A DNA stretch of 64,000 nt from Thermoanaerobaculia bacterium (GTDB lineage Bacteria > Acidobacteriota > Thermoanaerobaculia > Gp7-AA8): the NCBI GenBank assembly GCA_041671505.1, contig JBAZBK010000014.1, positions 20,395-84,394 on the forward strand, written 5' to 3'. The notes under the pieces are model-generated. The model saw only the letters and a program-made list of their open reading frames with translations. It searched no databases and had not been told where the DNA came from. Made by a program: the position numbers and the translations under genes. The stretch's first letter is position 1; each line of letters begins with the position of its first letter. Shown one piece after another: positions 8,060 to 52,066 of the stretch.

Positions 8060-8070
8060 TGCGCAGTAGT

Positions 8071-8196
8071 GGCCACGGCCTCTGGCCGTGGCGCGGAGGC
8101 CGGAGGCCTCCGCCACGAGGGGCCGCTCGTAGCCACGGCATCGCGATCGTGGCCACGGCCTCCGGCCGTGGCGCGGAGGCCGGAGGCCTCCGCCAC
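8071..8196. repeat. REP-like tandem: two copies of a 48-bp double-hairpin unit (GTGGCCACGGCCTCYGGCCGTGGCGCGGAGGCCGGAGGCCTCCGCCAC) separated by ~30 bp
   Basis: Each unit has two 9-bp-stem/3-nt-loop hairpins (GCCACGGCC/GGCCGTGGC and GCGGAGGCC/GGCCTCCGC). Lies between convergent genes (7586..8059 + and 8213..9739 -), so likely a bidirectional terminator or REP. The GGCCGGAGGCC core recurs in the lysC-upstream duplication. Confidence 0.6.
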
Positions 8197-8212
8197 TACG
8201 GACCACTCGCGG

Positions 8213-9739: not shown

Positions 9740-9774
9740 GAGGTCACCCCCAGCGACAGCGCTGCTGTCGAGTG

Positions 9775-9893
9775 AGAAACGACAAATGACAAATGACAAA
9801 GAGTGACTGCTCCGGGTCAGCAAAACCAGAAGCCTTGCGCTCCCAGTCTCTCTCCCCTTTCGTCATTTGTCATTCGTCATTTGTCATTCGTCT
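9775..9893. repeat. Heptamer-array-flanked cassette A: (CAAATGA/ACGACAA)n - 55-bp core - (TCGTCAT/TTGTCAT)n
   Basis: Left GAAACGACAAATGACAAATGACAAAG. Core GTGACTGCTCCGGGTCAGCAAAACCAGAAGCCTTGCGCTCCCAGTCTCTCTCCCC. Right TCGTCATTTGTCATTCGTCATTTGTCATTCGTC (4.5 heptamers). The arrays are reverse complements of each other. The right array encodes the last residues (..TQTNDK) and TGA stop of the STK gene 9877..12648. Coordinates +/-1. Confidence 0.7.
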
Positions 9894-12648
9894 GCGTCCG
9901 CGCCAGCAGCGGAATCGGGTCGGTGATCACGATCCGCTCCGCCTGGTCGTTCGCCGAGAGCACCATCGTCTTCCCGTCGGGAGAGAGCGAGAAGCTCTCC
10001 GGTGGAGCGAAGAGATCGAACGGCGTCAAATCGCGCCGTGTGGCGCGCGTGTCGCCGCCCGGCTCGAACTTCTGCATCCGAAGTCCGCACGCCCCGCTCT
10101 GTATACAGTCGAGAAATGCGAGCGACTTCCCGTCGGCCGACCATCGCGCCCGACCGGGAGAGAAGTTGCCCTGCATCCCTGCTGCCGGCGGATAGACGAG
10201 CTCGCTGACGCGCTGCACTTCCCCGCCGTCGATGCTCACGACGGACAGGAAACGTGTTCCGACCATCGAGGTCGAGTACGCGACCCACTTCCCGTCGGGC
10301 GAGACCTCAGGGAGCTGCGCCGTGCCTTCACTCGAGATGCGGGTGTCACCCTTCCCGTCGGGGTGGATCTTCCAGACGCCGGCACGAGTAGAGTTGTACG
10401 AGTTGTAGACGACCCATTGTCCGTCGGGGGTCATCGTCGGATTCTCCGCGTCGACGCCGTCGCTCGTCAGCTTGCGCGCGCCGGTGCCGTCCGCGTTCGC
10501 GATCCAGATCTCGTAGTTGCCCGAGCGCCGGGAGCTCCAGAGCAGGTATTTCCCGTCAGGGCTCATCGCCGGATCGAAATCGTCCGCAGGATCCTCGGTT
10601 AGGCGCCGCAGCGCGCCATCTTCGGTCGACACGCTCCAGATGTCGAGGTTCCCGCTCATCGTCGTCGAGAAGACGACGAGCTTGCCGTCGCGCGAGTACG
10701 CCGGCTGGCGATCCTGGCTCGCTCCGCGCGTGAGCCAGCGCCCGGTTCCGCCCGCCGCGCCCGGCAACGGCAGCTCGTGCAGATTTTGCCTAACTACGAT
10801 CTGGTCGACGATCACCCGCCCGTCATTCGTCACGTCGAGACGGAAGACCGGCTCCTGGGTGTAGAAGAGGTTCAGCGACTCGCCTGTCACGAGATTCTTC
10901 AGGAAGACGCGACTCCCCATCCCGCTCGGCGCGTACGTCGTCGAGGTCACCTCGGCCATCACGACGCGGTCGTTGTCGATCCAGGCGACGTTCGAGTGAA
11001 GCCCGGCATTCTGGAGCAGCTTCGGCTCGGTCACCTTCCCGTCGAGCCCGACGAGCGACGGCCGCCGGTTCCGGTAGCCGGGCGACGTGTCGGACACCGC
11101 GATGCGCTTTCCGTCGGGTGACCATCGCGGGTGCTGCCCCGCCATGTTCCTCAGCGTGGCGAGGTCGGTGAGCCCCGAACCGTCGGGATTCACGAGAAGC
11201 ACCTTCGTGTCGTAGCCGTCCTTGCGCTGGACCTGGCGCAGCACTGCGATGCGCGAGCCGTCGGGCGACCAGGCCGCGTCGACGCCGTCCTCGATGATGC
11301 GCCTCGGTGCGCCGCCTAACGCCGGAACCCTAAAGACGTCGGACTTCCCGCTGCCACCCTGCCGAACGAAGAGAACCGTAGCGCCGTCGGGCGAGAAGCT
11401 CGGAGTCCCGTCGGTGCCTTCGGTGAGCGCCAGCTCGCCGCCCCCTTCGATCTGCCGCAGCCAGATTCGCGCGCGACCGTCCCGCGACGACGCGAACGCG
11501 ACCATGCGTCCGTCGGGTGAAGCTGCCGGATGCAGGTCGTGGCCGGAGAACGTGAACGGGCGAAGCACCTGCGCGGGGATGTGGGTCGTGTCCGCACTCC
11601 CTCCGCCTGCACCGCGCTTCGCGATCCAGCCGATCGCGATGCCCGCGAGGAGCGACACGAGCGCGACCACGGCGACGAAACGCCGCGAGGCCCGAGGCCT
11701 CTCCGGCGCAAGGTCGAGCGCCTGCGCCTGCCCCGACATGCTCGAGAGATGGCCGAGCGCGAAGGCGACGTCGTGCATCGCGTGGAAACGCTCGTTGCGG
11801 TTCTTCTCGAGGCAATGCCTGACGATCTGGTCGAGCGCAGGGGAGACGCCCGACGTCGTCGAGCCTCTCGCGCTGGCAAGCTCCGGAGGATCCTCCTTGA
11901 GGATCGCGTTCATCGTCTCCACCTGCGAGTCGCCGCGGAACGCGCGGCGCCCGGTCAGCATCTCGTAGAGGACTGCGCCGAACGAGAAGATGTCGGTGCG
12001 GTGGTCGACAGCCTGTCCACGCACCTGCTCGGGCGACATGTAGCCGACGGTGCCCATCACCGTTCCCGGCGCGGTGTCGCGCTTCTGAGTCGCGGCGTCC
12101 TGATGGTCGCCGCCTTCGATTCCGGTCTGCTTCGCGAGACCGAAGTCGAGAATCTTCACGCGGCCGTCGGTGGTGACGAAGATGTTCTCCGGCTTGAGGT
12201 CGCGATGGACGACGCCGCGATCGTGCGCGGCGGCGAGCCCGGTAGCGATCTGCACGGCGTACTCGATCGCCTTCCGCTGCGGGATCGGAGAGACGCGCGT
12301 CGCATCGTCCTTCGCCGCGCCGGCGGCCTTCTCGTCGAGAAGGCCGCGGAGCGAATGCCCCTCGAGCAGCTCCATCGCGATGAAGGGCCCGCCCTCGTGC
12401 CGCCCCAGCTCGAAAATCGTCACGAGATTCGGATGATTGAGCGCCCCCGCCGCGCGTGCTTCCGACTCGAAGCGCGTCAGGCGGTCCTCGCTCTCGGCGA
12501 ACGACGGCGGCAGGATCTTGATCGCGACGTCACGCCCGATCCGTTCGTCACGCGCGCGATAGACCTCGCCCATGCCTCCGGCGCCGAGCGGCGCAAGGAT
12601 CTCGTAGTTGCCGATGCGGGTTCCGGGAGATACGGGCACGAAGACCAT
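9877..12648 (-). CDS. Serine/threonine protein kinase fused to TolB-like beta-propeller repeats (membrane-anchored)
   Basis: Start at internal Met (MVFVPVSPGTRIGNYEILAPLGAGGMGEVYRARD...) of track ORF. Hanks kinase motifs (VVHRDLKPENIF, DFGLA, GTVGYMSPEQ). A TM segment, then many SPDG/WSPDG TolB-type blades. The C-terminus and stop lie inside heptamer array A. Confidence 0.8.
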   Translation of the reverse strand: MVFVPVSPGTRIGNYEILAPLGAGGMGEVYRARDERIGRDVAIKILPPSFAESEDRLTRFESEARAAGALNHPNLVTIFELGRHEGGPFIAMELLEGHSLRGLLDEKAAGAAKDDATRVSPIPQRKAIEYAVQIATGLAAAHDRGVVHRDLKPENIFVTTDGRVKILDFGLAKQTGIEGGDHQDAATQKRDTAPGTVMGTVGYMSPEQVRGQAVDHRTDIFSFGAVLYEMLTGRRAFRGDSQVETMNAILKEDPPELASARGSTTSGVSPALDQIVRHCLEKNRNERFHAMHDVAFALGHLSSMSGQAQALDLAPERPRASRRFVAVVALVSLLAGIAIGWIAKRGAGGGSADTTHIPAQVLRPFTFSGHDLHPAASPDGRMVAFASSRDGRARIWLRQIEGGGELALTEGTDGTPSFSPDGATVLFVRQGGSGKSDVFRVPALGGAPRRIIEDGVDAAWSPDGSRIAVLRQVQRKDGYDTKVLLVNPDGSGLTDLATLRNMAGQHPRWSPDGKRIAVSDTSPGYRNRRPSLVGLDGKVTEPKLLQNAGLHSNVAWIDNDRVVMAEVTSTTYAPSGMGSRVFLKNLVTGESLNLFYTQEPVFRLDVTNDGRVIVDQIVVRQNLHELPLPGAAGGTGRWLTRGASQDRQPAYSRDGKLVVFSTTMSGNLDIWSVSTEDGALRRLTEDPADDFDPAMSPDGKYLLWSSRRSGNYEIWIANADGTGARKLTSDGVDAENPTMTPDGQWVVYNSYNSTRAGVWKIHPDGKGDTRISSEGTAQLPEVSPDGKWVAYSTSMVGTRFLSVVSIDGGEVQRVSELVYPPAAGMQGNFSPGRARWSADGKSLAFLDCIQSGACGLRMQKFEPGGDTRATRRDLTPFDLFAPPESFSLSPDGKTMVLSANDQAERIVITDPIPLLARTQTNDK

Positions 12649-32845: not shown

Positions 32846-32854
32846 GGGCGCGGA

Positions 32855-33116
32855 GTTGTTAGTTGTTAGTTGTTAGTTGTTAGACATGACGCGAGAGGCG
32901 GGCCAGAGGCCAAAGGCCAGAGGCCAAAGCAGGCAGAGCATCGCAACGGCGTTCTCAAGGACTCGACGCTGTCGGTAAAAATGTGAGCCGCCGCACGTTC
33001 GGATGGCGCATCTACTGATACGTTACTTGATTGGATCGAACGACCCTCGACAACTAACAACTAACAACTAACAACTAACAACTAACAACTAACAACTAAC
33101 AACTAACAACTAACAG
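32855..33116. repeat. Heptamer-array-flanked cassette B: (TTGTTAG)x4 - ~170-bp core - (CTAACAA)x8
   Basis: Left GTTGTTAGTTGTTAGTTGTTAGTTGTTAGAC begins 10 bp after the dapB stop. Right CAACTAACAA(CTAACAA)n..CAGCCAACAGC ends 24 bp before the dapA ATG. The core has lower GC and an inner short tandem (GCCAGAGGCCAAAG x2). Confidence 0.75.
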
Positions 33117-33139
33117 CCAACAGCTCCCCAGGTGCACAC

Positions 33140-34039
33140 ATGATCGCTGACAAGTTTCGCGGGCTCGGTACGGCGCTGGTGACCCCCTTCAAGGCCGACG
33201 GGTCGATCGACGAGTACGGACTCGAGAAGCTCGTGACTCTCCAGATCGAAGGAGGCGTCGACTTTCTCGTGCCGTGCGGCACGACGGGAGAGAATCCGGC
33301 GCTCTCGGCGAGCGAGCATCTCCGCGTGATCGAGCTGGTGATCCGGCGCGCGAACGGCAAGGTGCCGGTGCTGGCCGGCGCGGGCAGCAACTCCACCGAC
33401 AAAGCCACCGACCTCGCTCTCGGCGCGCGCGACCTCGGCGCCGACGGCATCCTCTCGATCACCCCGTTCTACAACAAGCCAAACCCCGACGGCCTGCTCC
33501 GCCACTTCGAGACGCAGGCCGACGCGATCGACGACATGCCGATCATCCTTTACAACTGTCCCGGCCGGACCGGGCTCAACATGACCGCGACGACGACGCT
33601 TCGCATCGCGCGCGCGATCCCGAACGTCGTCGGCGTCAAAGAGGCGTCGGCGAATCTCGAGCAGATCCTCCAGATCCTCCGCGACCGGCTGAAGGACTTC
33701 CTCGTCCTCAGCGGCGACGACGCCTGGACGCTTCCCCTCATCGCGGCCGGAGCCGACGGCGTCATCTCCGTCGCCTCGAACGAGATCCCGCGGCTGATGA
33801 GCGAGCTGGTCGACGCCGCGATGCGCGACGACTTCGCCGCCGCGCGCCCGATCCACGAACGAATCCTCCCGCTCATGACCGGCAACTTCATGGAGTCGAA
33901 CCCGATCCCGGTCAAGGCGGCAATGAAGATGCTCGGCATCATCGACAACGACACCGTCCGCCTGCCTCTGGCGCCGATGTCGGACGAGAACTACGCCAGG
34001 ATGCGGGCGATACTGGCCGAATTGAGAATCGAGAACTGA
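33140..34039 (+). CDS. dapA: 4-hydroxy-tetrahydrodipicolinate synthase
   Basis: TIM-barrel DapA family with active-site Lys region (..NVVGVKEASANLEQ..) and GTTGE motif. The last six codons (ELRIEN) and stop are encoded by the first heptamers of cassette C. Confidence 0.9.
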   Translation: MIADKFRGLGTALVTPFKADGSIDEYGLEKLVTLQIEGGVDFLVPCGTTGENPALSASEHLRVIELVIRRANGKVPVLAGAGSNSTDKATDLALGARDLGADGILSITPFYNKPNPDGLLRHFETQADAIDDMPIILYNCPGRTGLNMTATTTLRIARAIPNVVGVKEASANLEQILQILRDRLKDFLVLSGDDAWTLPLIAAGADGVISVASNEIPRLMSELVDAAMRDDFAAARPIHERILPLMTGNFMESNPIPVKAAMKMLGIIDNDTVRLPLAPMSDENYARMRAILAELRIEN

Positions 34040-34174
34040 GAATTGAGAATTGAGAGAACGCAAACCGCAGGCTTCGCGAGCAGCCAGGGCTTGAGAATCT
34101 GAGATGGTCGAGCTCGCGGGTGAGAGCTCGCGCCTCTGCCATCTCTCAATTCTCAATTCCCAATTCTCAATTCC
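34019..34174. repeat. Heptamer-array-flanked cassette C: (GAATTGA/GAATCGA/GAACTGA)n - ~85-bp core - (TCTCAAT/TCCCAAT)n
   Basis: Left GAATTGAGAATCGAGAACTGAGAATTGAGAATTGAGAG overlaps the dapA 3' end. Right CTCTCAATTCTCAATTCCCAATTCTCAATTCCGC. The core has an internal palindrome (GAGCTCGCGGGTGAGAGCTCGCGCC). Same heptamer family as cassette H. Confidence 0.75.
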
Positions 34175-34197
34175 GCGATCCGAAGGAGCGCGTCACA

Positions 34198-35021: not shown

Positions 35022-35228
35022 GTCAGTGTTCAGTACTCAGTACTGAGTACTGAGTACTGAGTAAGGGCACCAGAGACGAGAGAAAAGAGAAGAGTTAAAA
35101 GTTGAGTTGACCGGGCTCCTCGGCTCCGCAACTCTTCACTCTTCTCTCTTCACTCTTCTCTCTTAACTTTTTCCGTCTTCCGTGTTCTAAACTCAGTACT
35201 CAGTACTCAGTACTCAGTACTCAGTACT
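35022..35228. repeat. Heptamer-array-flanked cassette D: outer (CAGTACT/CTGAGTA)n arrays enclosing nested element X with (AGAGAAG)/(CACTCTT CTCTCTT)n arrays
   Basis: Outer left GTCAGTGTTCAGTACTCAGTACTGAGTACTGAGTACTGAGTAAGG is itself a perfect palindrome. Outer right (CTCAGTA)x5 ends 6 bp before the aminotransferase ATG. Inner X at 35064-35172 is ~85-90% identical in its arms to 49934-50044. Confidence 0.75.
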
Positions 35229-35234
35229 AAAAAG

Positions 35235-41563: not shown

Positions 41564-41719
41564 GTCATCCCGACGACCGAGCACCGCGAGGGAGGAGGGA
41601 TCTCGCAGGCTGGTACAGTCGAGGTTCGGCGCGAACTACCCGGCCAGTGGCACGTGAGTACCAGCCTGCGAGGTCCCTCCTCCTTCCCCCGCTTCGCGGA
41701 GTCAGTCGTCGGGACGACA
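41564..41719. mobile_element. MITE-like palindromic repeat element, copy 3 (near-identical to 3995-4160)
   Basis: GTCATCCCGACGACCGAGCACCGCGAGGGAGGAGGGATCTCGCAGGCTGGTAC ... GTACCAGCCTGCGAGGTCCCTCCTCCTTCCCCCGCTTCGCGGAGTCAGTCGTCGGGACGACA. It creates the spurious N-terminal extension of track ORF 41543..43261. Confidence 0.7.
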
Positions 41720-41812
41720 ACGCAAGCGTGCGTTAGCCAAACGTACCGCCGCTCCGCCCGAAAACCCGCTTCCGATCCGAATACTCCCGCTTCACGCCTC
41801 GTTGTCTCCGTC

Positions 41813-43347: not shown

Positions 43348-43515
43348 GTCGTTCCGAGAAGCGACCCCGCGAAGCGGGGGAGCGACGAGGAACCTCGCCG
43401 GCTGGTACATTCGCGCAACGAGCGAGAACGCCGGGGCGAGCAGACCTCATCTGTACCAGCCTGAGAGGTCCCTCCTCCCCGCTCCCGCTTCGCGGGATCG
43501 GTCGTCGGGACGACA
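43348..43515. mobile_element. MITE-like palindromic repeat element, copy 4 (divergent arms, same GGCTGGTAC...GTACCAGCCTGAGAGGTCCCTCCTCC core)
   Basis: GTCGTTCCGAGAAGCGACCCCGCGAAGCGGGGGAGCGACGAGGAACCTCGCCGGCTGGTAC ... GTACCAGCCTGAGAGGTCCCTCCTCCCCGCTCCCGCTTCGCGGGATCGGTCGTCGGGACGACA. 3' of the VWA gene. Confidence 0.65.
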
Positions 43516-43586: not shown

Positions 43587-44474
43587 CTAACGACCGCGTT
43601 TGATCGCGAGGCGAAGGGCGTTCCTGACCTCACCGAACATCGTCTCGGGTGCAACGCCGTCGTCGCGGTGACTCCACGCCTTCTTCGTCATCACCTCGAG
43701 CTTCCGCTCGTCGAGGACCTTGCCGTCGATCGTCGCGCCGTTCAGCTCGCAGAAGACGAGCAGAGAAACGAGCGCGACGCGGCGGTTGCCGTCCTTGAAG
43801 GGCCGGTCACGGAGAAGGCCCCAATAGAGCACCGCGGCCTTGTCGGAAAAGGCCTGGTAGGCCTCGCGACCAAGGAATGTCGACTGGGGGATCTGGACGG
43901 CGCGGACGAGCCCGAACTGCGACTCGACGACGCCCGGACTTGCATTGCGGCCGCCGATCTCGCGGTCGACTGCGATATGGAGCTCGACGAGCTCCTCGAC
44001 GGTCAGGTAGCGGATCCCGCTAGTCGGCGAGGCGACGGAGGGCGTCGGGGTACTTTTTGAGAGCCCGGGCGAAGGCTGCGGAGACGTCGGGGCGGAGACC
44101 GCCGCTGACGGCCGCGCCTTTGTTTCGGCTGTCGCCTGAGGCTGAGCCTTGGGCGCCGCTGCCTTTGCCACCGGCTGGGGCTGCGCCTTTGATGCCTTTG
44201 GCTGCGGGAGCGGCTTTGTCACCAGCTTTGACGGCGGGAGCGGCTTTGACCCCGCCTTTGACGGCGGGAGCAGCTTTGACACCGGCTTTGACGGCGGGAG
44301 CGACTTTGACGCCTTCTTTGGGGCGGACTTCGACTGGGGCTTTGACGGGTTTGGGGGGCTTTTCGGCTTTGGGGACGGCTTGGGCGACGACTTTTTTACC
44401 GCTTTTGCTGGTGGCCTGGCTTTTGAGGGCTTCGTGGCTACCTTTGGCGTGGCCTTTGCTTGCTTTTTTGCCAT
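43587..44474 (-). CDS. Doc/Fic-family (death-on-curing) protein with N-terminal Lys/Pro/Ala/Ser-rich histone-H1-like repeat region
   Basis: C-terminal Fic motif HIAVDREIGG...FKDGNRRVALVSLLVFCELNG. The N-terminal ~150 aa is low complexity (PPSKPVSKLLPPSKAGSKPLPPSKLVTKPLPQPKASK), encoded by ~33-bp tandem DNA repeats. Lys is mostly AAG as elsewhere in this genome; the overlapping alternative frame 44020..44481 uses AAA. Confidence 0.7.
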   Translation of the reverse strand: MAKKQAKATPKVATKPSKARPPAKAVKKSSPKPSPKPKSPPNPSKPQSKSAPKKASKSLPPSKPVSKLLPPSKAGSKPLPPSKLVTKPLPQPKASKAQPQPVAKAAAPKAQPQATAETKARPSAAVSAPTSPQPSPGLSKSTPTPSVASPTSGIRYLTVEELVELHIAVDREIGGRNASPGVVESQFGLVRAVQIPQSTFLGREAYQAFSDKAAVLYWGLLRDRPFKDGNRRVALVSLLVFCELNGATIDGKVLDERKLEVMTKKAWSHRDDGVAPETMFGEVRNALRLAIKRGR

Positions 44475-45123: not shown

Positions 45124-45140
45124 GGTCGAAGTCTTCGGGT

Positions 45141-45331
45141 GTCAGTTGTTAGTTGTCAGTTGTTAGTTGTCAGACAGAAGCAGTGGTCGCCATCGGTGTC
45201 ATCGTGCAGTCGTGATGAGAGAAAGTCCATGGGGCATGTCACGGTTTCGAGTGCGCGTCGCGATGGAGGCAACCGGGTGTCATACAACTCTGCCGCTGCC
45301 TATCTAACAACTAACAACTAAAAACTAACAA
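45141..45331. repeat. Heptamer-array-flanked cassette E: (GTTGTTA/GTTGTCA)n - ~130-bp core - (CTAACAA)n
   Basis: Left GTCAGTTGTTAGTTGTCAGTTGTTAGTTGTCAG. Right CTAACAACTAACAACTAAAAACTAACAACC. Same TTGTTAG family as cassette B with an unrelated core. Lies between the lhr stop and the start of the 91-aa ORF. Confidence 0.75.
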
Positions 45332-45339
45332 CCCTCCCT

Positions 45340-48300
45340 CTACGTAGGACCGCGTCCAATCCGTAGCTGATACCCCATCGCCGTCGGCCGGAAGCCTTCG
45401 GCTTCGAGCGCCGCGGCCAGCGGCGATTCGGCGACGGGCCGGCCGTTCACTTCCGCGACGAAGACCGTGCGAAGGCGCTCAGCGTCACGCGCCAGTATGG
45501 ATGCAAGCGCTTTCATCGCGGCGGAGCGTTTCGGCTCGTCCTCTTCGGGGATCACCTGCAATGCGTTGCCTCCCTTGTAGAGGTACGCGACGAGCGCGCC
45601 GTCGACGAGCACGACCCTCGCGCCGACGGCGCGGGCGAGCGTTCGCCCATCCGCAGTGGCCGGCCACGGAAGGAGCGCTCCGTACGGATTCCCAGGGTCG
45701 GTCGCCGCGAGCACGAGCGCCTCGACCGTCGCGGAGTCGGCACGGAGCGATCGCAGGAGATCGATCGCGCCGCCGAGCGCGAACTGTCCGGCGGCGATCC
45801 CTTCGACGAAGTAGCCGCGTCGGATCTTCCCTGCCTCCTCCATCCGCTTGAGCACCTCGTACGCCGCAGAGAATCCGCCGCGCAGCGACTCCGCGTCGGC
45901 GACGTCGCGTGCGACGATCCCGTAGCGCGCGAGAAGCTGCTGCGCGAGCGCCGCCGCCCGCTCGGTGCTCCCCGCCGGGGCCCCTCCGATCGACTCCGCG
46001 AGCGACCATCGTCCCTCGCTTCCCTGCGGCGCGATACGCCGCGCGAGCGACGGCCTGCGAAGCGGCACGAGCGCGGGCCCGCGCGAGGCTCCGGTCCGCG
46101 CGCGAAGCGCGTGAAGGCTGTCGTTCGTGACGACGCCCTTCCAGACGAGGCTCCAGATCGCGTCGAGCGTGTCGTTAGGAAAGCCCCCGCCGAGTCCTTC
46201 GTGAATCCGGTCGAAGAACGATGCGCCAGTTGCTCGGAGAAGATCGACGACGCGCGATTCCATGCCATCGATCGATGGCTCATCCGCATCCCTGCGCAGC
46301 AATGGGAACTGCCCCCCGAGGTAGAGCGCGATGCGGCCGTCCTTCTCGCCGAGCGGCGCGACGCCGCTCCAGGTCACGTCGCCTGTCGCGATCAGCCGGT
46401 CGAGGTCACCCGGCAGATAGTCCTTTACCCGCGCCGGCAGGATCTCCGACTCGAGCAGCGACGCCGCGATCGGCAGCCCCTGCAACGAGTCGATCGCCTC
46501 GACGAGCGATGCCGCTCCCTTCCCCGGCGCCGCCACCCCCTGCCAATGTGCGAGCATTCGCGCGAAGTGCCGCGGCTCCACCGGCTCAATTTCCTTTCGC
46601 AGCTTCGCGAGAGACTGGCGGCGGATCCTCGCGAGCACGTCGGCGTGACAGAGCTCGCGCTGGCTTCCGCGGGGGCGGAACTCGCCTTCGACGATCTTTC
46701 CTTCGATCACGAGCCCGCGCAGCGCTTCGTCGATCTTCCTGCGATCGGTCCCGAGCCTCGCGGCAGCTTCTGCCGCGGTGAACGGGCCGTGCGTTCTCGC
46801 GTATCGCGACACGAGGTCGCGCAGGGGATCATCGACGGGCCGGAGGAACGCCTCGGCCACGCCGCTCGCAATCGTCGCGCCGAGCGCGTCACGATAGCGC
46901 GCGGCATCCTCGATCGCGATGAGACGCCGCTCGCCGGCGACGTCGACCTCGAGCGCGCGGCGCGCACCGAGGAGTGCGCCGACCACAGCGTCGATGCCAT
47001 CGCCCGCGAACCGGAGCGCGAGCTCCTCGCGGCTCAGGTCGCCTAACGACAGCCGCGTGTCGTGCACGGCGTCCGGGGTCGCCTCGCCGTTCGGTTCGTC
47101 GAGGCGCTGCAGCCTCGCCAGGGTCGTCGCGGTGATCTCCTCGTCGAGCAGCTCGCGGAGAGCCGCCTCCCCGAGGAGCTCGCGAAGGCGCGACTGGTCG
47201 ATCGCGAGCGCGTGCGCGCGGCGCTCCGCGAGCGGCGCGTCGCCGTCGTAGAGATAGTTCGCGACGTAGCGGAAGAGTACCGAGCCGGCGAACGGCGACG
47301 GGCGCTCCGTGTCAGAGACGACGAGCCGCGTCTCGCGCCGCTCGAGGCTGCGCATCAGCGCGACGAGCGCCGGCACGTCGAAGAGGTCGCGAAGGCATTC
47401 GCGGTACGCCTCGAGGACGATCGGAAACGAGCCGAACTTCGCGGCGACGTGGAGCAGATCGGACGCCCGTTTGCGCTGGCGCCAGAGTGGTGTCCGCTCG
47501 CGCCCCGCGCGGCGCGGAAGAAGGAGAGCGCGCGCGGCCGACTCGCGAAAGCGCGCGGCGAAGAGCGACGTGCCGGCGAGCTGCCCGACGAGCAGCTCTT
47601 CCACTTCTTCCGCGCCGGGGATGAGCGATTCGACGGCCGGCGGCGAGTCGGTATCGGGAAATCGGATCACGAAGCCGTCGTCGCCCCACATCGCGTCGAC
47701 GTCGAGCCCGCGCTCGCGCCGGACCTTCGCGATCGCGGCCATCGCCCAGGGAGCGATCACGCGACCGCCGAGCGGGCTGAGCACGCAAACGAGCCAGTCG
47801 CCGAGCTCGTCGCGCACGCGTTCGACGACGACAGTGCGGTCGTCGGGGATCGCGCCTCCCGACTCCTTCTGATCGGCGAGGTACTGCACGAGATTTCGCG
47901 CCGCGAGCTCGTCGAGCCCGTGTTTCGAGGTGAGCGTCGCGCGCGCCTTCGCCGGAGGGAGCGCCGCGAGCGAGCGCGTCAGCGCGCCGATCCGCTCGCC
48001 GAATTCGACGGGGCGCGACGCGGAGTCGGCCTTCCAGAACGGCATCTTCCCCGGCTGGCCGGGCGCGGGGATGACGATCACGCGGTCGCGCGTGATCTCT
48101 TCGACGCGCCAGGTCGACGCGCCGAGAACGAACGCATCGCCGACGGCCGTCTCGAAGACCATCTCCTCGTCGAGCTCGCCGACGCGCCCCTGGCCCTTGT
48201 CGGCTCCCGCGAGAAAAACGCCGTAGAGACCGCGATCGGGAATCGTGCCGGCGTTGAGCACGGCCACGCGACGCGCGCCGGCGCGCGAGGAGAGCTGGTC

Positions 48301-49869
48301 GCTCTCGCGATCCCAGAGGATGCGAGGACGAAGCTCCGCGAAGTCGTCCGACGGGTAGAGCCCCGCGAGCATGTCGAGGAGTTGCTCGAACGTCGCGCGG
48401 GAGAGCTGCGCCCAGGGGGCCGCGCGGCGGACCGTCTCGTAGAGCTCGCCGACGCCGTAGTCCTCGACTGCGACCATCGCGACGATCTGCTGCGCGAGGA
48501 CGTCGAGCGGATTGCGCGGAAAGCGCGTCTCCTCGATCTCGCCGCGCGTCATCGCGCGGGAGACGGCGGCGGAAGCGAGCAGGTCGCCGCGGAACTTCGG
48601 AAAGACGATGCCATGGCTCGTCTCGCCGACCTGGTGGCCGGCGCGGCCGATCCGCTGCATCCCGCTTGCGACGGAAGGCGGCGCTTCGATCTGCACGACG
48701 AGGTCGATCGACCCCATGTCGATGCCGAGCTCGAGCGTGGAGGTCGCGACGAGGCCGCGGATCGCGCCGCGCTTGAGCGCATCCTCGATCAGGAGCCGTT
48801 GCTCGCGCGCGATCGAGCCGTGGTGCGCGGCGACGAGCTCCTCGCCCGCGAGCTCGTTGAGCGCGCCGGCGAGCCGTTCCGCGAGCCGCCGCGCATTGAC
48901 GAAAAGCAGCGTGGTCCGGTGTGCGCGGATGAGCTCGACGAGGCGCGGGTGAATCGAGGGCCAGATCGACGGAGACGAGGGGAAGCGGGAGCCATCCTCG
49001 CGCGGCGACGCGCCCGGCTCGTCGAGTGCGGCCATGTCCTCGACCGGGACCTCGACGGTGATCGCGAGCGACTTCCGCTCGCCCGTGTCGACGACGGTGA
49101 CCGGGCGCCACGACTGTTCGCTCGATTCGTCGGCGGGCGTGGTGATCGGATCGGTGGAGTCGTTCTCGCGGCGCCTCACAGCGGCACTCCCGCTCGCCAC
49201 GCCGCCGAGGAAGTGCGCGACCTCCTCGAGCGGCCGCTGCGTTGCCGAGAGGCCGATTCGCTGCAGCGGGCGACCCGCGAGGCGCTCGAGCCGCTCGAGC
49301 GAGAGCGCGAGATGCGCGCCTCGCTTGGTCGGCACGAGCGAGTGGATCTCGTCGACGATCACCGTGTCGACCGAGGCGAGCGACGAGCGCGCCGCCGATG
49401 TCAGGATCAGATAGAGCGACTCGGGCGTCGTGATCAGGATGTCGGCCGGAGCGCGGCGGAATCGGGCGCGTTCGCTCTGAGGCGTGTCGCCGGTGCGGAT
49501 CGCGACGGCGGGAGCGTGGTGACGGGCGCCCAGCGACTGCGCGACGCGCGCGATGCCCTCGAGCGGCTCGCGCAGGTTCCGCTCGATGTCGACGGCAAGC
49601 GCTTTGAGCGGCGAGACGTAGACGACGCGGCAGCGCTCGCGCGCGGGAGGGAGCGGCGAGAACATCAACCGGTCGATGCACCAGAGAAACGCGGTCAGCG
49701 TCTTGCCCGACCCGGTCGGCGCGGTGAGCAGCACCGACTCTCCCTTCGCGATAGCCGGCCACCCGAGCGCCTGCGCGCGCGTCAGCCCCTCGAACGAGGC
49801 GCGAAACCACTCGGCGACGGGAGAGGCGAAGAGACCGAGCGGATCGGGCGAGGACATCGAGGGAACCAT
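45340..49869 (-). CDS. lhr: Lhr-family large ATP-dependent DEAD/DEAH-box helicase
   Basis: 1509 aa. Walker A APTGSGKTL, DEIH box, helicase C domain and the long Lhr-specific C-terminal extension. Confidence 0.85.
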   Translation of the reverse strand: MVPSMSSPDPLGLFASPVAEWFRASFEGLTRAQALGWPAIAKGESVLLTAPTGSGKTLTAFLWCIDRLMFSPLPPARERCRVVYVSPLKALAVDIERNLREPLEGIARVAQSLGARHHAPAVAIRTGDTPQSERARFRRAPADILITTPESLYLILTSAARSSLASVDTVIVDEIHSLVPTKRGAHLALSLERLERLAGRPLQRIGLSATQRPLEEVAHFLGGVASGSAAVRRRENDSTDPITTPADESSEQSWRPVTVVDTGERKSLAITVEVPVEDMAALDEPGASPREDGSRFPSSPSIWPSIHPRLVELIRAHRTTLLFVNARRLAERLAGALNELAGEELVAAHHGSIAREQRLLIEDALKRGAIRGLVATSTLELGIDMGSIDLVVQIEAPPSVASGMQRIGRAGHQVGETSHGIVFPKFRGDLLASAAVSRAMTRGEIEETRFPRNPLDVLAQQIVAMVAVEDYGVGELYETVRRAAPWAQLSRATFEQLLDMLAGLYPSDDFAELRPRILWDRESDQLSSRAGARRVAVLNAGTIPDRGLYGVFLAGADKGQGRVGELDEEMVFETAVGDAFVLGASTWRVEEITRDRVIVIPAPGQPGKMPFWKADSASRPVEFGERIGALTRSLAALPPAKARATLTSKHGLDELAARNLVQYLADQKESGGAIPDDRTVVVERVRDELGDWLVCVLSPLGGRVIAPWAMAAIAKVRRERGLDVDAMWGDDGFVIRFPDTDSPPAVESLIPGAEEVEELLVGQLAGTSLFAARFRESAARALLLPRRAGRERTPLWRQRKRASDLLHVAAKFGSFPIVLEAYRECLRDLFDVPALVALMRSLERRETRLVVSDTERPSPFAGSVLFRYVANYLYDGDAPLAERRAHALAIDQSRLRELLGEAALRELLDEEITATTLARLQRLDEPNGEATPDAVHDTRLSLGDLSREELALRFAGDGIDAVVGALLGARRALEVDVAGERRLIAIEDAARYRDALGATIASGVAEAFLRPVDDPLRDLVSRYARTHGPFTAAEAAARLGTDRRKIDEALRGLVIEGKIVEGEFRPRGSQRELCHADVLARIRRQSLAKLRKEIEPVEPRHFARMLAHWQGVAAPGKGAASLVEAIDSLQGLPIAASLLESEILPARVKDYLPGDLDRLIATGDVTWSGVAPLGEKDGRIALYLGGQFPLLRRDADEPSIDGMESRVVDLLRATGASFFDRIHEGLGGGFPNDTLDAIWSLVWKGVVTNDSLHALRARTGASRGPALVPLRRPSLARRIAPQGSEGRWSLAESIGGAPAGSTERAAALAQQLLARYGIVARDVADAESLRGGFSAAYEVLKRMEEAGKIRRGYFVEGIAAGQFALGGAIDLLRSLRADSATVEALVLAATDPGNPYGALLPWPATADGRTLARAVGARVVLVDGALVAYLYKGGNALQVIPEEDEPKRSAAMKALASILARDAERLRTVFVAEVNGRPVAESPLAAALEAEGFRPTAMGYQLRIGRGPT

Positions 49870-49884
49870 AGCAATAGGGATAGG

Positions 49885-50118
49885 CGGAAGGCGAGGGGCG
49901 AGAGGCGATGAGCAACGGTAAGTGACGGAACGGCAGAGAAGAGTGAAAAGAGAGAAGAGAAGAGTTGAGAGTTGGGAGAGCCGGGCACCCTTGATGACGA
50001 GGTCAACTCTTCACTCTTCTCTCTTCACTCTTAACTCTTCTCTGCCTCCAGCTCCCGCGCTCCGGCTCATGCTCGCCCGCATCCGCCGACTCGCCTCTCG
50101 CCCCTCGCCTTTCGCCTC
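49885..50118. repeat. Composite cassette F: outer (GGCGAGG)n/(TCGCCTC)n heptamer arrays enclosing a second copy of nested element X (49934-50044)
   Basis: Outer left GGCGGAAGGCGAGGGGCGAGAGGCGATGAG. Outer right TCGCCTCTCGCCCCTCGCCTTTCGCCTCG. Inner X arms CAGAGAAGAGTGAAAAGAGAGAAGAGAAGAGTTGAGAGTTG / TCAACTCTTCACTCTTCTCTCTTCACTCTTAACTCTTCTCTG. Starts 15 bp upstream of the lhr start codon, in the divergent lhr/PDE promoter region. Confidence 0.7.
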
Positions 50119-50184
50119 GTGCTAGACACGGCCCCTCGCCACTGCAAGAATAGGTCGCACGACTTCCCACCGACGGACTACGCG

Positions 50185-50949: not shown

Positions 50950-51102
50950 AGAATTGAAAATTTGAAATTGAACATTGAAGCTTGAACGCGGGCCAGGCAG
51001 ATCCACCCGCGGAATGTTGCGCCCTCCCCGGGAGGTTGACCGCGACGCCAGAAGCGCGATTCGTGCCTCCCGGCTCTTTTCAATTTTCAATTTTCAATTT
51101 CG
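50948..51102. repeat. Heptamer-array-flanked cassette G: (GAATTGA/AAATTGA-like)n - ~90-bp core - (TTTCAAT)x3
   Basis: Left GAAGAATTGAAAATTTGAAATTGAACATTGAAGCTTGAA starts at the PDE stop codon. Right TTTTCAATTTTCAATTTTCAATTTC ends 4 bp before the GT2 ATG. The core has a CCTCCCCGGGAGG palindrome. Confidence 0.7.
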
Positions 51103-51105
51103 CCC

Positions 51106-51957
51106 ATGCCAAGACCTCGAATCAGCGCACTCGTCACGACGTACAACGAAGCCGAGCACGTGGAGCCATGCCTCCTCTCGCTCGAGTGGGCCGACGAGAT
51201 CGTCCTCGTCGACTCGTTTTCCAACGACGGCACGGCCGAGCTCGTCCGCGACCGCTTCCCGAAGGTCAAGTTCATCCAGCGCGAGTACCTCGGCTCCGCC
51301 GCGCAGAAGAACTTCGGCCTCGACTCGGTCTCGAACGACTGGGTCCTGGTCGTCGACGCCGACGAGCAGGTCACCCCGGAGCTGCGCGACGAGATCCTCC
51401 GCGTCCTGGAGGAAGGGCCGAAGTACTGGGCCTACTGGATCGGCCGATCGAACTTCGTTCTCGGCAAACCGGTGCGCTACAGCGGGCTCCAGCGGGACGG
51501 CGTCCGCCGTCTCATGCACCGGAAGAACGCTCGCTACCCGAACCGCCGCGTCCACACCGACCTCGCGGTCAACGGCCCCGTAGGACGCCTGCGCGGCAAG
51601 TTCAAGCACCTCTACATCCGCTCGTTCGACCACCAGGTCGAGAAGATGACGCGCTACGGTCTCTGGGGCGGCACGCAGCTCCACATCGAAGGGCGCGAAG
51701 TCTCGGCACCCGGAATCCTCGGCCACTCCTTCGCCCGCTTCTTCCGCGACTACGTCGTCAATCTCGGCTTCCTCGACGGAGCCCCCGGTCTCATCACCGT
51801 CGGCCTCCACACCTTCTACACCTTCTGGAAGTACTCCAAGCTCTGGGAGTTCAACCGCCTCAAGGAGCAGGGCAGGGCGCCGAAGCTCCCGAAGATCGAG
51901 ACCGATGAGGAAGTGTGGAAGATGCCTTGGGAAGAGGACGAAGGAGAGACGAATTGA
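51106..51957 (+). CDS. Family 2 glycosyltransferase
   Basis: N-terminal GT-A fold (ISALVTTYNEAEHV...DEIVLVDSFSNDGT...VVDADE DxD). The last three codons (ETN) and stop lie in cassette H. Confidence 0.8.
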   Translation: MPRPRISALVTTYNEAEHVEPCLLSLEWADEIVLVDSFSNDGTAELVRDRFPKVKFIQREYLGSAAQKNFGLDSVSNDWVLVVDADEQVTPELRDEILRVLEEGPKYWAYWIGRSNFVLGKPVRYSGLQRDGVRRLMHRKNARYPNRRVHTDLAVNGPVGRLRGKFKHLYIRSFDHQVEKMTRYGLWGGTQLHIEGREVSAPGILGHSFARFFRDYVVNLGFLDGAPGLITVGLHTFYTFWKYSKLWEFNRLKEQGRAPKLPKIETDEEVWKMPWEEDEGETN

Positions 51958-52062
51958 GAATTGAGAATTGAGAGACATAAAAGAGATATCAATTAGAGAC
52001 TGTTACCGTAGTCAATAATTGAGAATCGTTTCACGTCTCTCAATTCTCAATTCTCAATTCCG
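51951..52062. repeat. Heptamer-array-flanked cassette H: (GAATTGA)x3GAG - 60-bp AT-rich core - CTC(TCAATTC)x3
   Basis: Left GAATTGAGAATTGAGAATTGAGAGAC. Core ATAAAAGAGATATCAATTAGAGACTGTTACCGTAGTCAATAATTGAGAATCGTTTCACGT (~33% GC). Right CTCTCAATTCTCAATTCTCAATTCC. Lies between convergent GT2 and sigma-54 RR genes; the arms are near-perfect reverse complements. Confidence 0.75.
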
Positions 52063-52066
52063 CCCT

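What the first reader, a model, noticed from the sequence alone, without database searches (positions are those of the whole stretch)
49885..50118. Nested composite: a ~110-bp heptamer-armed element X occurs inside two different outer cassettes (35064-35172 and 49934-50044)
Element X has arms (AGAGAAG-type)n / (CACTCTT CTCTCTT)n that are ~85-90% identical between the two copies. Its right arm is CAACTCTTCACTCTTCTCTCTTCACTCTT... in both. The loops differ but share CCGGGC. In cassette D it is embedded between CAGTACT arrays; in cassette F between GGCGAGG arrays. Two related copies in unrelated hosts 15 kb apart argue that at least this unit is mobile or copied. Insertion of cassettes into cassettes would make them preferred targets for one another, like nested MITEs or IS elements. 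Cassette F also lies in the divergent promoter region of lhr and the PDE gene, starting 15 bp from the lhr ATG.
Basis: seen in the sequence. Interest (0 to 1): 0.75.

Follow-up and report, generated by a model that had tools for sequence, protein, structure and literature searches.

The report
Layered heptamer-repeat hairpins between genes
The two "X" units are the inner layers of two long DNA hairpins whose arms are tandem 7-base repeats, part of a fast-turning-over class of gene-gap fillers in this Thermoanaerobaculia genome; transposon-like movement of X is not shown.

Summary
X1 (35064-35172) and X2 (49934-50044) share a 29-nt exact right arm, similar left arms and a CCGGGC loop start. Each sits inside a different outer inverted heptamer array.

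D (35022-35234) and F (49877-50122) are each one long hairpin (-100 and -147 kcal/mol, z about -10). They are 2 of 8 such cassettes in the window. All fill gene gaps up to stop codons, start codons or a promoter.

Orthologous loci in relatives (81-95% protein identity) show cassettes gained, lost or replaced by other heptamer types at the same junctions. Some outer arms are kept while the inner arrays differ. Both arms can change together.

X is not a private element. Its 20-mer occurs in more than 120 metagenome contigs of 34-72% GC, and X1-X2 similarity barely exceeds X versus those unrelated arrays. No target-site duplication, shared termini or transposase was found.

Across 84 inverted heptamer pairs from many taxa, the 5' arm is G>C in 32 of 36 motif families.

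Best reading: foldback simple-sequence hairpins built by slippage, arm-to-arm template switching and ectopic copying. Nesting is layering, not a proven insertion. This is a new variant of known intergenic heptamer repeats.

The parts
35022..35234 (.). Cassette D: one long hairpin that fills the whole dapD stop (35019-35021) to aminotransferase ATG (35235) gap
   Evidence: RNA fold -100 kcal/mol, z -10.5. Absent in L242, where the junction is TAG-CGGG-ATG. Replaced by an AGTTGTT-type cassette in L248.
35032..35063 (+). D outer 5' arm, (AGTACTG)4.6
   Evidence: TRF; pairs with 35191-35228.
35191..35228 (+). D outer 3' arm, (ACTCAGT)5.4; ends 6 nt before the ATG
   Evidence: TRF, 100% matches.
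35064..35172 (+). X1. The 5' arm of AG-rich heptamers (AGAGACG AGAGAAA AGAGAAG AGTTAAA AGTTGAG) is at 35072-35110. The loop is 35111-35128 and starts with CCGGGC. The 3' arm, (CACTCTT/CTCTCTT)n, is at 35129-35172.
49877..50122 (.). Cassette F: one long hairpin between the lhr ATG (49869, minus strand) and the promoter-like site of the PDE-like gene
   Evidence: RNA fold -147 kcal/mol, z -9.9. Identical in an independent Logan assembly. Relatives L252 and L328 carry a GGATTTC/GAAATCC hairpin at this site, and L249/L250 keep only TTCGCCTCGT.
49884..49915 (+). F outer 5' arm, GGCGAGG/AGGCGAG heptamers
   Evidence: TRF 49889-49908. Same array type and GGCGATGAGCA boundary as the outer arm of the L242 12925-12951 cassette.
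50085..50118 (+). F outer 3' arm, (CTCGCCT)4.1. The last unit, TTCGCCTCGT, is also present in L249, so it is older than the rest.
49934..50044 (+). X2. The 5' arm is at 49934-49980. The loop is 49981-50003 and starts with CCGGGC. The 3' arm is at 50004-50044.
50123..50151 (+). Promoter-like site (TAGACA, 17 nt, TG AAGAAT) of the PDE-like gene. It is conserved in all relatives and marks the fixed right limit of every cassette seen at this site.
9768..9897 (.). Cassette A: TGACAAA ... TTCGTCA/TTTGTCA hairpin between two minus-strand genes. The stop codon of the upstream gene lies inside the array.
   Evidence: z -4.8.
32846..33125 (.). Cassette B: (AGTTGTT)4.3 ... (ACAACTA)9.4 hairpin, with a one-sided inner (GGCCAGA/GGCCAAA) array at 32901-32929. 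It lies at the dapB-dapA junction.
   Evidence: z -6.4. No cassette in L242. A GAGTCCT-type cassette in L246.
34016..34178 (.). Cassette C: GAATTGA ... TCTCAAT hairpin at the dapA-dapD junction. The dapA stop TGA (34037-34039) lies inside the array.
   Evidence: Present in window, L242, L246, L248 and L326. 6 of 29 pairs show compensatory changes.
45135..45335 (.). Cassette E: TGTCAGT/TGTTAGT ... CTAACAA hairpin between the lhr stop and the next minus-strand gene. It belongs to the same family as B.
   Evidence: A degenerate orthologue is present in L249/L250.
50950..51103 (.). Cassette G: AAATTGA-type hairpin from the PDE stop to the GT2 ATG
   Evidence: The orthologous site carries GAATTGA-type cassettes in L249, L250, L252 and L328.
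51945..52066 (.). Cassette H: (GAATTGA)3.3 ... (TCTCAAT)3.3 hairpin between convergent genes. The GT2 stop TGA (51955-51957) lies inside the array.
   Evidence: z -12.1.

Best explanation
X1 and X2 are the inner layers of two foldback simple-sequence hairpins. These are intergenic palindromes in which the 5' arm is a tandem array of a G-rich heptamer, usually carrying TGA or TAG. The 3' arm is the complementary C-rich array. Several array types can be stacked in one hairpin.

The class is abundant in this Thermoanaerobaculia lineage, with 8 cassettes in 64 kb.

Shown:
- The cassettes occupy all free space between functional boundaries (stop codon, start codon, -35 element).
- They are gained, lost and replaced within about 5-15% protein divergence.
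- Array types recur at unrelated loci.
- Both arms of a cassette change together.
- The X array type (AAGAGTG/AAGAGAG paired with CACTCTT/CTCTCTT) is cosmopolitan.

Inferred mechanism:
- Arrays are born and resized by replication slippage on 7-nt units.
- The two arms are kept complementary by intra-hairpin template switching (quasipalindrome correction), by selection for pairing, or by both.
- Arrays, or whole arm pairs, are occasionally copied to other gaps by homology- or microhomology-guided template switching or recombination, not by a cut-and-paste transposase.
- New arrays can arise at the apex or at the base of an existing hairpin. This gives layered composites such as D (CAGTACT around X) and F (GGCGAGG around X).

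Inferred consequence:
- When transcribed, the cassettes fold into 120-280-nt hairpins.
- Survivors are those that do not harm expression. The 5' arm supplies stops in all frames.
- The G-first, C-second polarity, which is the same on both strands, would avoid exposing C-rich, G-poor untranslated RNA to Rho.
For: Hairpins:
- D and F fold at -100 and -147 kcal/mol, z about -10.
- All 8 cassettes have z between -3.7 and -12.1, against -0.6 +/- 1.4 for random windows.

Inverted pairing is the rule here:
- 20 of the 22 heptamer arrays in the window are in inverted pairs.
- Elsewhere only 104 of 637 arrays have an inverted partner.

Turnover at orthologous junctions:
- dapD-dapC is empty in L242 (TAG CGGG ATG), carries an AGTTGTT type in L248, and carries CAGTACT plus X here.
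- dapB-dapA is empty in L242, carries a GAGTCCT type in L246, and carries an AGTTGTT type here and in L248.
- The PDE-upstream site carries a GGATTTC type in the 95% and 91% relatives, only a remnant in the 89% relatives, and GGCGAGG plus X here.
- Layering: L242 and L246 share the outer TTTCGCC arm at the Zn-ribbon-GT2 site, but their inner arrays are AATGAAG and (AGTCCTG)23.

Families at non-orthologous loci share array-boundary motifs:
- AGTTGTTAGAYAGG in one family.
- GAATTGAGAGA ... GCCATCTCTCAATTC in another.

Concerted arm change:
- GAATTGA/TCAATTC becomes AAATTGA/TCAATTT on both arms at the C site of L326 and at the G site here.
- 6 of 29 pairs are compensatory.

No sign of a transposase:
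- No target-site duplication of 5 nt or more.
- No mobile-element domains in the 20 window proteins scanned.

X is cosmopolitan:
- Its 20-mer saturated the metagenome scan at 120 contigs of 34-72% GC, many of them AAGAGTG-loop-CACTCTT hairpins placed between a stop and an ATG.
- (CACTCTT)3 gave 58 viral stretches, against 14 for a permuted control.

Polarity:
- The 5' arm is G>C in 32 of 36 motif families (p = 2e-6) and in 24 of 26 non-X families (p = 1e-5).
- There is no A/T bias.

Background from the literature:
- Heptamers are the commonest long simple-sequence-repeat unit in many prokaryotes, attributed to polymerase slippage (Mrazek 2007 as summarised in PMC4679880).
Against: - Slippage and template switching were not observed directly. 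L121 and the L242-L245 set show no copy-number variation between assemblies.
- Independent in-situ growth cannot easily give the same order of unit variants (AA, CA, CT, CA) and the same CCGGGC loop start in X1 and X2. Some copying step is needed, and its mechanism is unknown.
- The Rho-avoidance reading of the polarity is untested.
- Sense-strand G.U compatibility of arm mismatches is only weakly favoured: 26 versus 14, with 38 transversions. Folding energies are similar on both strands. RNA-level selection is therefore not demonstrated.
- Only 64 kb of the source genome, plus about 70 kb of relatives, could be examined.
Confidence: 0.5

Rival explanations
1. X, and the cassettes in general, are non-autonomous mobile elements moved in trans by an enzyme that recognises single-stranded hairpins. 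The model is a REP/RAYT- or IS200/IS605-like peel-and-paste enzyme, which leaves no target duplication. On this reading X inserted into pre-existing cassettes D and F.
For: - Presence/absence is precise at stop-start junctions, for example L242 TAG CGGG ATG against a 213-nt cassette here.
- The same families occur at unrelated loci and in different genomes.
- The lack of a target-site duplication is what HUH-type transposition predicts (own knowledge of IS200/IS605 and REP/RAYT).
- GTAG immediately precedes the left end of B, D, E (reverse complement) and the L248 dapD-dapC cassette. REPs carry a 5' GTAG (own knowledge).
- Both X copies are lineage-specific gains.
Against: - At least 8 heptamer types occur in 64 kb with no shared terminal sequence, so one sequence-specific enzyme cannot serve all of them.
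- Loops are unrelated within families.
- One-sided inner arrays exist: 32901-32929 here and GGCGAGA in L248.
- X1-X2 similarity is not above similarity to unrelated taxa.
- No transposase was found among the 20 window proteins scanned.
- The dapD GTAG is native, because it is also present at the empty site in L242.
Confidence: 0.25
2. The arrays are cis-regulatory binding sites for oligomeric nucleic-acid-binding proteins that read a 7-nt register, either on RNA near start codons or on DNA like IHF/HU. X1 and X2 resemble each other because both are tuned to the same factor.
For: - 3' arms end 6-25 nt before start codons, often without a Shine-Dalgarno sequence.
- Cassette C is kept across five genomes.
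- Motif types recur across loci and phyla, mostly in an NNNNTGA form.
- Precedents exist. TAACTGA arrays have been proposed as translational regulator sites (PMC4679880). Paired opposite-strand tandem-repeat sites in G. metallireducens have been proposed as global-regulator or IHF/HU sites (PMC2700814). Heptamer repeats affect recO promoter behaviour in Nostoc (bioRxiv 10.1101/2022.06.06.494920).
- HutP reads UAG triplets at a 7-nt period (own knowledge).
Against: - At one and the same junction, close relatives carry different motifs or nothing at all. This is hard to reconcile with conserved regulation of dap genes.
- There are too many motif types for the number of plausible factors.
- The cassettes occur equally between convergent genes (H).
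- No factor has been identified.
Confidence: 0.17
3. The X1-X2 resemblance is chance similarity of low-complexity AG/CT-rich sequence, or the cassettes are assembly artefacts.
For: The arm identity is no higher than with unrelated X-type arrays, so the arms alone do not prove common descent.
Against: - The alignment score is 79 against 13.6 +/- 2.4 for shuffles.
- The two copies share an apex: AGTT heptamers and CCGGGC.
- The cassettes are identical in an independent Logan assembly.
- Orthologous cassettes appear in five independent projects.
Confidence: 0.03

Closest known systems
Paired tandem-repeat sites of Geobacter metallireducens (classes 1-3 of Aklujkar et al. 2009, PMC2700814)
   Same: - Two sites on opposite strands, each made of 3-5 tandem 7-9-nt units (class 3 is MTYCTGA x5, 8 pairs), at variable distance.
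- They are intergenic and include operon-internal gaps such as proB-proA.
- They are absent or different at the same site in the sister species.
- The motif resembles GTCCTGA of L246.
   Different: - They were described only as alignments and interpreted as global-regulator (IHF/HU) binding sites.
- No layering, turnover, arm co-variation or polarity was reported.
- Here the arms are longer, several types are stacked, and they abut stop and start codons.
Intergenic heptamer direct repeats: long simple-sequence repeats (Mrazek 2007), cyanobacterial STRR, and TAACTGA arrays of Beggiatoaceae (MacGregor 2015, PMC4679880)
   Same: - The unit is 7 nt, and most units contain TGA.
- The arrays are intergenic and lie just upstream of start codons without a canonical ribosome-binding site.
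- The same motif occurs in distant phyla with no known transfer mechanism.
   Different: - Those arrays are direct: 169 direct sets against 1 indirect set in BOGUAY.
- There is usually one dominant motif per genome.
- Here nearly every array has an inverted partner, and many motifs coexist.
REP/BIME elements and their RAYT transposases
   Same: - Intergenic palindromes that fill gaps between genes, including inside operons.
- Mosaic composites occur.
- There is no target duplication.
- A GTAG lies next to some left ends.
   Different: - REPs are 20-40-nt unique-sequence stems in hundreds of near-identical copies per genome (own knowledge).
- These are 120-280-nt hairpins of tandem heptamers, in many sequence types.
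- No RAYT was seen. Separate GC-rich BIME-like repeats do exist in the window at 8062-8220.
Foldback (FB) transposons and MITEs
   Same: The long inverted arms are themselves built of short tandem subrepeats around a variable centre. This is FB-like architecture (own knowledge). The nested appearance resembles nested MITEs.
   Different: - No target-site duplication.
- No conserved termini.
- No cognate transposase.
- FB elements are known only from eukaryotes.
Quasipalindrome template-switch mutagenesis (Ripley model; studied in E. coli by the Lovett laboratory)
   Same: It explains how a change in one arm is copied into the other. This fits the concerted GAATTGA to AAATTGA change on both arms.
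   Different: It is known as a point-mutation mechanism in short imperfect palindromes. It has not been described as a builder of repeat-array hairpins. Cited from own knowledge and not tested here.

Membership tests
Heptanucleotide long simple-sequence repeats / STRR / TAACTGA-type arrays | Three or more head-to-tail copies of a 7-nt unit | tested here: met
   TRF finds 22 period-7 arrays in the window, including all arms of D, F, X1 and X2.
Heptanucleotide long simple-sequence repeats / STRR / TAACTGA-type arrays | Intergenic position, frequently directly upstream of a start codon | tested here: met
   The 3' arms of D and G each end 6 nt before the ATG. C, B and E end about 20-25 nt before it.
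Heptanucleotide long simple-sequence repeats / STRR / TAACTGA-type arrays | Arrays occur as solitary direct repeats | tested here: not met
   20 of 22 arrays in the window are halves of inverted pairs. BOGUAY has 169 direct sets against 1 indirect (PMC4679880).
MITE / IS-derived element | Target-site duplication flanking the element | tested here: not met
   No direct repeat of 5 nt or more at any boundary within +/-12-18 nt for X1, X2, D or F. The empty site in L242 shows no duplication either.
MITE / IS-derived element | Conserved terminal inverted repeats shared by copies and by a parent IS | tested here: not met
   The termini differ between cassette types. Within families only the array and a few boundary bases are shared. 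No transposase was found among the 20 window proteins scanned.
MITE / IS-derived element | Many near-identical copies in one genome | tested here: inconclusive
   There are 2 X copies in 64 kb (72% identical overall) and none in about 70 kb of relatives. The rest of the 165-kb contig and the rest of the genome could not be read.
REP/BIME (RAYT-mobilised) | Short (20-40 nt) unique-sequence imperfect palindrome with a conserved 5' GTAG | tested here: not met
   The arms are heptamer arrays and the hairpins are 120-280 nt. GTAG precedes only B, D, E (reverse complement) and the L248 dapD-dapC cassette, and at dapD it is the native codon context.
REP/BIME (RAYT-mobilised) | A RAYT (Y1 HUH) gene in the genome | not testable with these tools
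   Only the window and short loci were available. None of the 20 window proteins scanned has a Y1_Tnp domain.
Geobacter-type paired tandem-repeat sites (descriptive class, PMC2700814) | Two sites on opposite strands, each of 3-5 tandem 7-9-nt units, at variable spacing, in several intergenic places per genome | tested here: met
   8 cassettes (10 inverted array pairs) with spacers of about 20-165 nt.
Intrinsic (Rho-independent) terminator | Short GC-rich stem followed by a T run | tested here: not met
   The terminator scan finds no site inside any cassette arm and no excess over shuffles.
Any curated RNA family (Rfam 15) | Score at or above the family gathering threshold | tested here: not met
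   There are 0 hits at gathering thresholds. At E<=0.5 there are only sub-threshold matches to generic eukaryotic miRNA-precursor hairpin models, on both strands of F, H and the 4.0/41.6-kb palindrome.

The most novel reading that the evidence does not exclude
Inverted heptamer-array hairpins are a cosmopolitan, self-propagating kind of DNA. They spread and renew themselves without a transposase, or with a still unknown hairpin-specific enzyme. They would do so by hairpin-templated synthesis between arrays. A universal G-first, C-second arm polarity would be imposed by transcription and Rho surveillance. X (AAGAGTG : CACTCTT) would then be one of its pan-bacterial lineages, exchanged horizontally.
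Probability: 0.2. Interest if true: 0.85.

Novelty: new variant of a known kind. Interest (0 to 1): 0.6.

Why it matters
Intergenic heptamer repeats have been noted since the cyanobacterial STRRs, and their origin and function are still open.

This locus, with its relatives, offers a natural time series. The same gene junction is seen empty, occupied, re-occupied by another repeat type, or layered. The two arms co-vary.

It also yields a simple rule that holds across phyla: the 5' arm is G-rich and the 3' arm is C-rich. The rule is testable, for example by flipping the polarity in a reporter with and without Rho inhibition.

If the cassettes are built by slippage plus template switching, they are a clean model for how palindromes arise and persist in bacterial genomes. 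If an enzyme moves them, it is an undescribed kind of mobile DNA.

There is also a practical point. The cassettes sit in 5' leaders and between operon genes, so they probably shape mRNA processing and translation in a poorly known phylum.

Tried and rejected
A census of X copies in the source genome was therefore not possible. It did show that X is cosmopolitan.
3. I tried to walk out of the window. One look-up gave only 3.6 kb more (L325, no arrays of interest). One found no record. The 95% DapD relative has no DNA on file; only its gene spacing is known, a 205-nt gap.
4. RNA-level selection was tested in two ways, and neither was decisive. Folding both strands gave similar energies with no consistent advantage for the sense strand. 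Classifying arm mismatches gave 26 sense-G.U-compatible, 14 antisense and 38 transversions.
5. The terminator hypothesis failed: there are no terminator-like sites in the cassettes.
6. No known RNA family matches.
7. No target-site duplication was found.
8. A search for mobile-element enzymes among 20 window proteins found none.
9. Clustering of arrays was considered as evidence for mutual targeting. 30 of 117 X arrays have a different array nearby, against 7.5% on a naive expectation. I rejected this as evidence, because confinement of arrays to about 10-15% intergenic sequence predicts similar clustering.
10. The apparent compensatory change at site G (window versus relatives) may be a replacement rather than descent, because the loops do not align. 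The cleaner case is site C in L326.
Full report
OBSERVATION.
- X1 is 35064-35172 and X2 is 49934-50044. They share the exact 29-mer CAACTCTTCACTCTTCTCTCTTCACTCTT.
- The right arms match at 34/36, the left arms at 22/26, and the whole units at 83/116 aligned columns.
- The local alignment score is 79, against 13.6 +/- 2.4 for shuffles.
- Both loops begin with CCGGGC.
- X1 lies between (AGTACTG)n and (ACTCAGT)n arrays. X2 lies between (AGGCGAG)n and (CTCGCCT)n arrays.

ANATOMY. D (35022-35234) and F (49877-50122) are each one long, nearly continuous hairpin. The outer arrays pair with each other and the X arms pair with each other.
- D folds at -100 kcal/mol (z -10.5). F folds at -147 kcal/mol (z -9.9).
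- They are not special cases. The window holds 8 such cassettes: A 9768-9897, B 32846-33125, C 34016-34178, D, E 45135-45335, F, G 50950-51103 and H 51945-52066.
- Each cassette is a heptamer array, a loop, and the complementary array.
- Their z-scores run from -3.7 to -12.1, against -0.6 +/- 1.4 for random 200-nt windows.
- 20 of the 22 period-7 arrays in the window are halves of inverted pairs.
- The cassettes are 36-59% G+C in a 66% G+C genome.

GENE CONTEXT. The cassettes fill entire gene gaps (Pfam).
- In the dapB-dapA-dapD-aminotransferase operon, B, C and D occupy three successive junctions.
- D runs from 1 nt after the dapD stop to 1 nt before the next ATG.
- In A, C and H the stop codon of the upstream gene is a TGA inside the array.
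- F ends exactly at a promoter-like site of the PDE-like gene (50123-50151, TAGACA-17-TGnAAGAAT). That site is conserved in all relatives.
- None of the 20 window proteins scanned has a mobile-element domain.

SOURCE. Protein matches place the window on a 165-kb contig of a Thermoanaerobaculia (Acidobacteriota) MAG. An independent Logan assembly (L121) has F, G and H base-for-base identical, so the cassettes are not assembly artefacts.

COMPARATIVE EVIDENCE, SITE BY SITE.
- dapA-dapD: a GAATTGA-type cassette is present in all five genomes seen (window, L242, L246, L248, L326). It is therefore old. In L326 both arms have shifted to AAATTGA/TCAATTT. RNAalifold counts 6 of 29 pairs with compensatory changes.
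- dapB-dapA: the genes overlap (ATGA) in L242. L246 has a GAGTCCT/ACTCAGG cassette. The window and L248 have an AGTTGTT type.
- dapD-dapC: L242 has only TAG-CGGG-ATG. L248 has an AGTTGTT-type cassette with a one-sided GGCGAGA inner array. L246 and L326 have an extra ORF with no cassette. The window has CAGTACT plus X. The 95% relative has a 205-nt gap, but no DNA is available.
- Zn-ribbon-GT2: the window has no arrays. L242 has an AGGCGAA outer layer and an AATGAAG inner layer. L246 keeps the outer TTTCGCC arm but has (AGTCCTG)23/(TCAGGAC)9 inside.
- PDE upstream: L252 (95%) and L328 (91%) carry a GGATTTC/GAAATCC hairpin. L249 and L250 (89%) keep only ...CTCGCGATTCGCCTCGT next to the promoter. 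The window has GGCGAGG plus X.

These comparisons show four things. Cassettes come, go and are overwritten within about 5-15% protein divergence. Layering is real. Inner layers can be newer than outer ones (L242/L246). Array purity suggests the opposite order in D, B and the L248 dapD-dapC cassette.

FAMILIES AT DIFFERENT LOCI.
- The AGTTGTT-type cassettes at window B, window E (reverse complement) and the L248 dapD-dapC junction share the boundary GTTGTTAGAYAGG and a G-rich linker after a TAG stop.
- The GAATTGA-type cassettes at C, H and the G orthologues share GAATTGAGAGA and GCCATCTCTCAATTC.
- Loops within a family are unrelated.
- This argues for some copying of arms between loci, but not for transposition of a defined unit.

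IS X A PRIVATE MOBILE ELEMENT? No.
- A generic CTCTTNN x4 pattern and the X 20-mer both saturated their scans at 120 contigs. The contigs come from many phyla and span 34-72% G+C.
- Many hits are AAGAGTG-loop-CACTCTT hairpins placed exactly between a stop codon and the next ATG, for example L207, L134, L148, L210, L157, L141 and L239.
- L153 even has a CAGTACT array next to the X-type array, as in D.
- The 26-mer core is in 28 of 120 loci.
- X1 and X2 score up to 75 against those unrelated arrays, versus 79 against each other. Their left arm plus loop scores 40, against up to 44 for unrelated hairpins.
- Only the apex (AGTT-type heptamers and CCGGGC) is private to X1 and X2.
- (CACTCTT)3 gives 58 viral stretches, against 14 for a permuted control.
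- X-type arrays are absent from about 70 kb of relatives. Both copies are therefore recent gains in this lineage. Together with the shared apex, this makes intragenomic copying plausible but unproven.

TESTS FOR TRANSPOSITION.
- No direct duplication of 5 nt or more exists at any plausible boundary of X1, X2, D or F.
- The empty site in L242 shows none either.
- The cassette types share no termini.
- GTAG precedes B, D, E (reverse complement) and the L248 dapD-dapC cassette. This is reminiscent of REP/RAYT (own knowledge), but at dapD it is the native codon context.

A GENERAL RULE. I collected 84 non-redundant inverted heptamer-array pairs from all loci fetched (genome, metagenome, viral and relatives).
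- The 5' arm has G>C in 32 of 36 motif families (p = 2e-6), and in 24 of 26 families unrelated to X (p = 1e-5).
- A versus T shows no bias.
- A palindrome reads the same on both strands, so this polarity is intrinsic and is seen by transcription from either side.
- Most 5' arms also carry TGA or TAG once per unit, which gives a stop in all three frames. The skew holds for stop-free motifs as well.
- Caveat: the loci were chosen through X-type arrays, so the rule needs an unbiased test.

RNA OR DNA? Both strands fold about equally well. Arm mismatches are 26 sense-G.U-compatible, 14 antisense-compatible and 38 transversions. There are no terminator-like sites and no Rfam family. The pairing is real and maintained, but RNA-level selection is not demonstrated.

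EXPLANATION. I favour (0.5) foldback simple-sequence hairpins.
- Arrays arise and resize by slippage on 7-nt units. This is the known bias of prokaryotic long simple-sequence repeats (Mrazek 2007, as summarised in PMC4679880).
- The arms are kept complementary by intra-hairpin template switching (quasipalindrome correction, own knowledge), by selection, or by both.
- Arrays are occasionally copied to other gaps by homology-guided events.
- New arrays appear inside or around old ones, which gives layers.
- Cassettes survive only where, and in the polarity in which, they do no harm. I infer that the stop-bearing 5' arm and the G-first, C-second order avoid exposing C-rich, G-poor untranslated RNA to Rho (own knowledge of rut sites; untested).

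Rivals are a hairpin-specific mobile element (0.25), protein-binding regulatory arrays (0.17), and chance or artefact (0.03).

KNOWN RELATIVES.
- The closest precedent is the set of paired, opposite-strand tandem 7-9-nt repeat sites annotated in Geobacter metallireducens, for example MTYCTGA x5 between proB and proA. They were interpreted as global-regulator sites (PMC2700814).
- Heptamer direct arrays (STRR, TAACTGA) share the unit length, the TGA content, the position before start codons and the puzzling cross-phylum distribution. They are direct, not inverted.
- REP/BIME elements, MITEs and eukaryotic foldback elements share aspects of architecture but fail their defining tests here.

VERDICT. 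This is a new variant of a known kind of repeat. Three findings add interest: fast, layered turnover at fixed junctions, concerted arm evolution, and a strong G>C arm polarity across taxa.

LIMITS. Both large DNA scans were saturated. The rest of the source genome could not be read. No expression data were available.

Noticed in passing
window 45340-50100, versus L249 8950-9285 and L250 3770-4100: The whole lhr gene, plus the left part of F and X2, is missing in three relatives with 89% PDE identity. In those relatives the 91-aa gene, a degenerate cassette E and the PDE promoter are contiguous. In the window the extra 4.7 kb is bracketed by two copies of CCCTC (ACAACCCTCCCTC|TACG... and ...GCCCCTC|GCCTTTCGCC). 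L249 has one copy (ACAACTCCCTC|GCGATTCGCC). This is an indel at a 5-nt microhomology, and its direction is unknown.
   Followed up: partly
all fetched loci (84 inverted heptamer-array pairs): The 5' arm of inverted heptamer arrays is G>C in 32 of 36 motif families, and in 24 of 26 families unrelated to X. There is no A/T bias. The loci come from many phyla and from viral contigs. I know of no published statement of this rule.
   Followed up: partly
window 4021-4174, 41587-41733, 43379-43515: A different repeat family, 90-97% identical over 30-87 nt. It contains a roughly 23-bp palindrome (GGAGGGATCTCGCAGGCTGGTAC / GTACCAGCCTGCGAGGTCCCTCC). It lies at the 5' ends of a tricorn-like protease gene and a VWA-domain gene, and after the latter.
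   Followed up: no
window 8062-8220; L242 1-290 and 4166-4623: GC-rich tandem palindromic units of 80-125 nt (GTGGCCACGGCC..GGCCGTGGC, GGAGGCCGGAGGCCTCC; in L242 AGGCAAGGCGTCTCGCCTTGCC...GAAGGCCGGAGGCCTTCGC). They look like classical REP/BIME clusters and are distinct from the heptamer cassettes.
   Followed up: no
L246 10831-12642; L326 1278-2672: In two relatives an ORF of about 600 aa with no Pfam hit sits between dapD and the aminotransferase gene, 5 nt after the dapD stop. This is the place where the window has cassette D.
   Followed up: no
L253-L310 (IMG/VR contigs): (CACTCTT)3 arrays occur in 58 viral stretches. Several viral contigs carry them at three or more separate places, for example IMGVR_UViG_3300038345_000118 and IMGVR_UViG_3300037400_000625. 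One heptamer type can therefore be dispersed within a phage genome as well.
   Followed up: no
L153 (metagenome contig Ga0207639_10018635, 60% G+C): An unrelated contig has GATTTCG, CAGTACT and CACTCTT arrays directly abutting. These are the same heptamer types seen in the window (D) and in L252/L328, but all are in direct orientation.
   Followed up: no
window 44194-44394: A 30-nt (60-nt) tandem repeat (GCTTTGACGGCGGGAGCGGCTTTGACACCGG, 3.8 copies) lies inside the Fic-domain ORF 43587-44474 (minus strand). It is a repetitive coding segment.
   Followed up: no
window B, D, E (reverse complement); L248 1950-1965: GTAG (a codon ending in G, then a TAG stop) immediately precedes the left end of four cassettes. 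In the three AGTTGTT-type cassettes (B, E, L248 dapD-dapC) it is followed by a G-rich 6-8-nt linker before the first AGTTGTT unit. This recalls the GTAG of REP elements, but it may be native sequence.
   Followed up: partly
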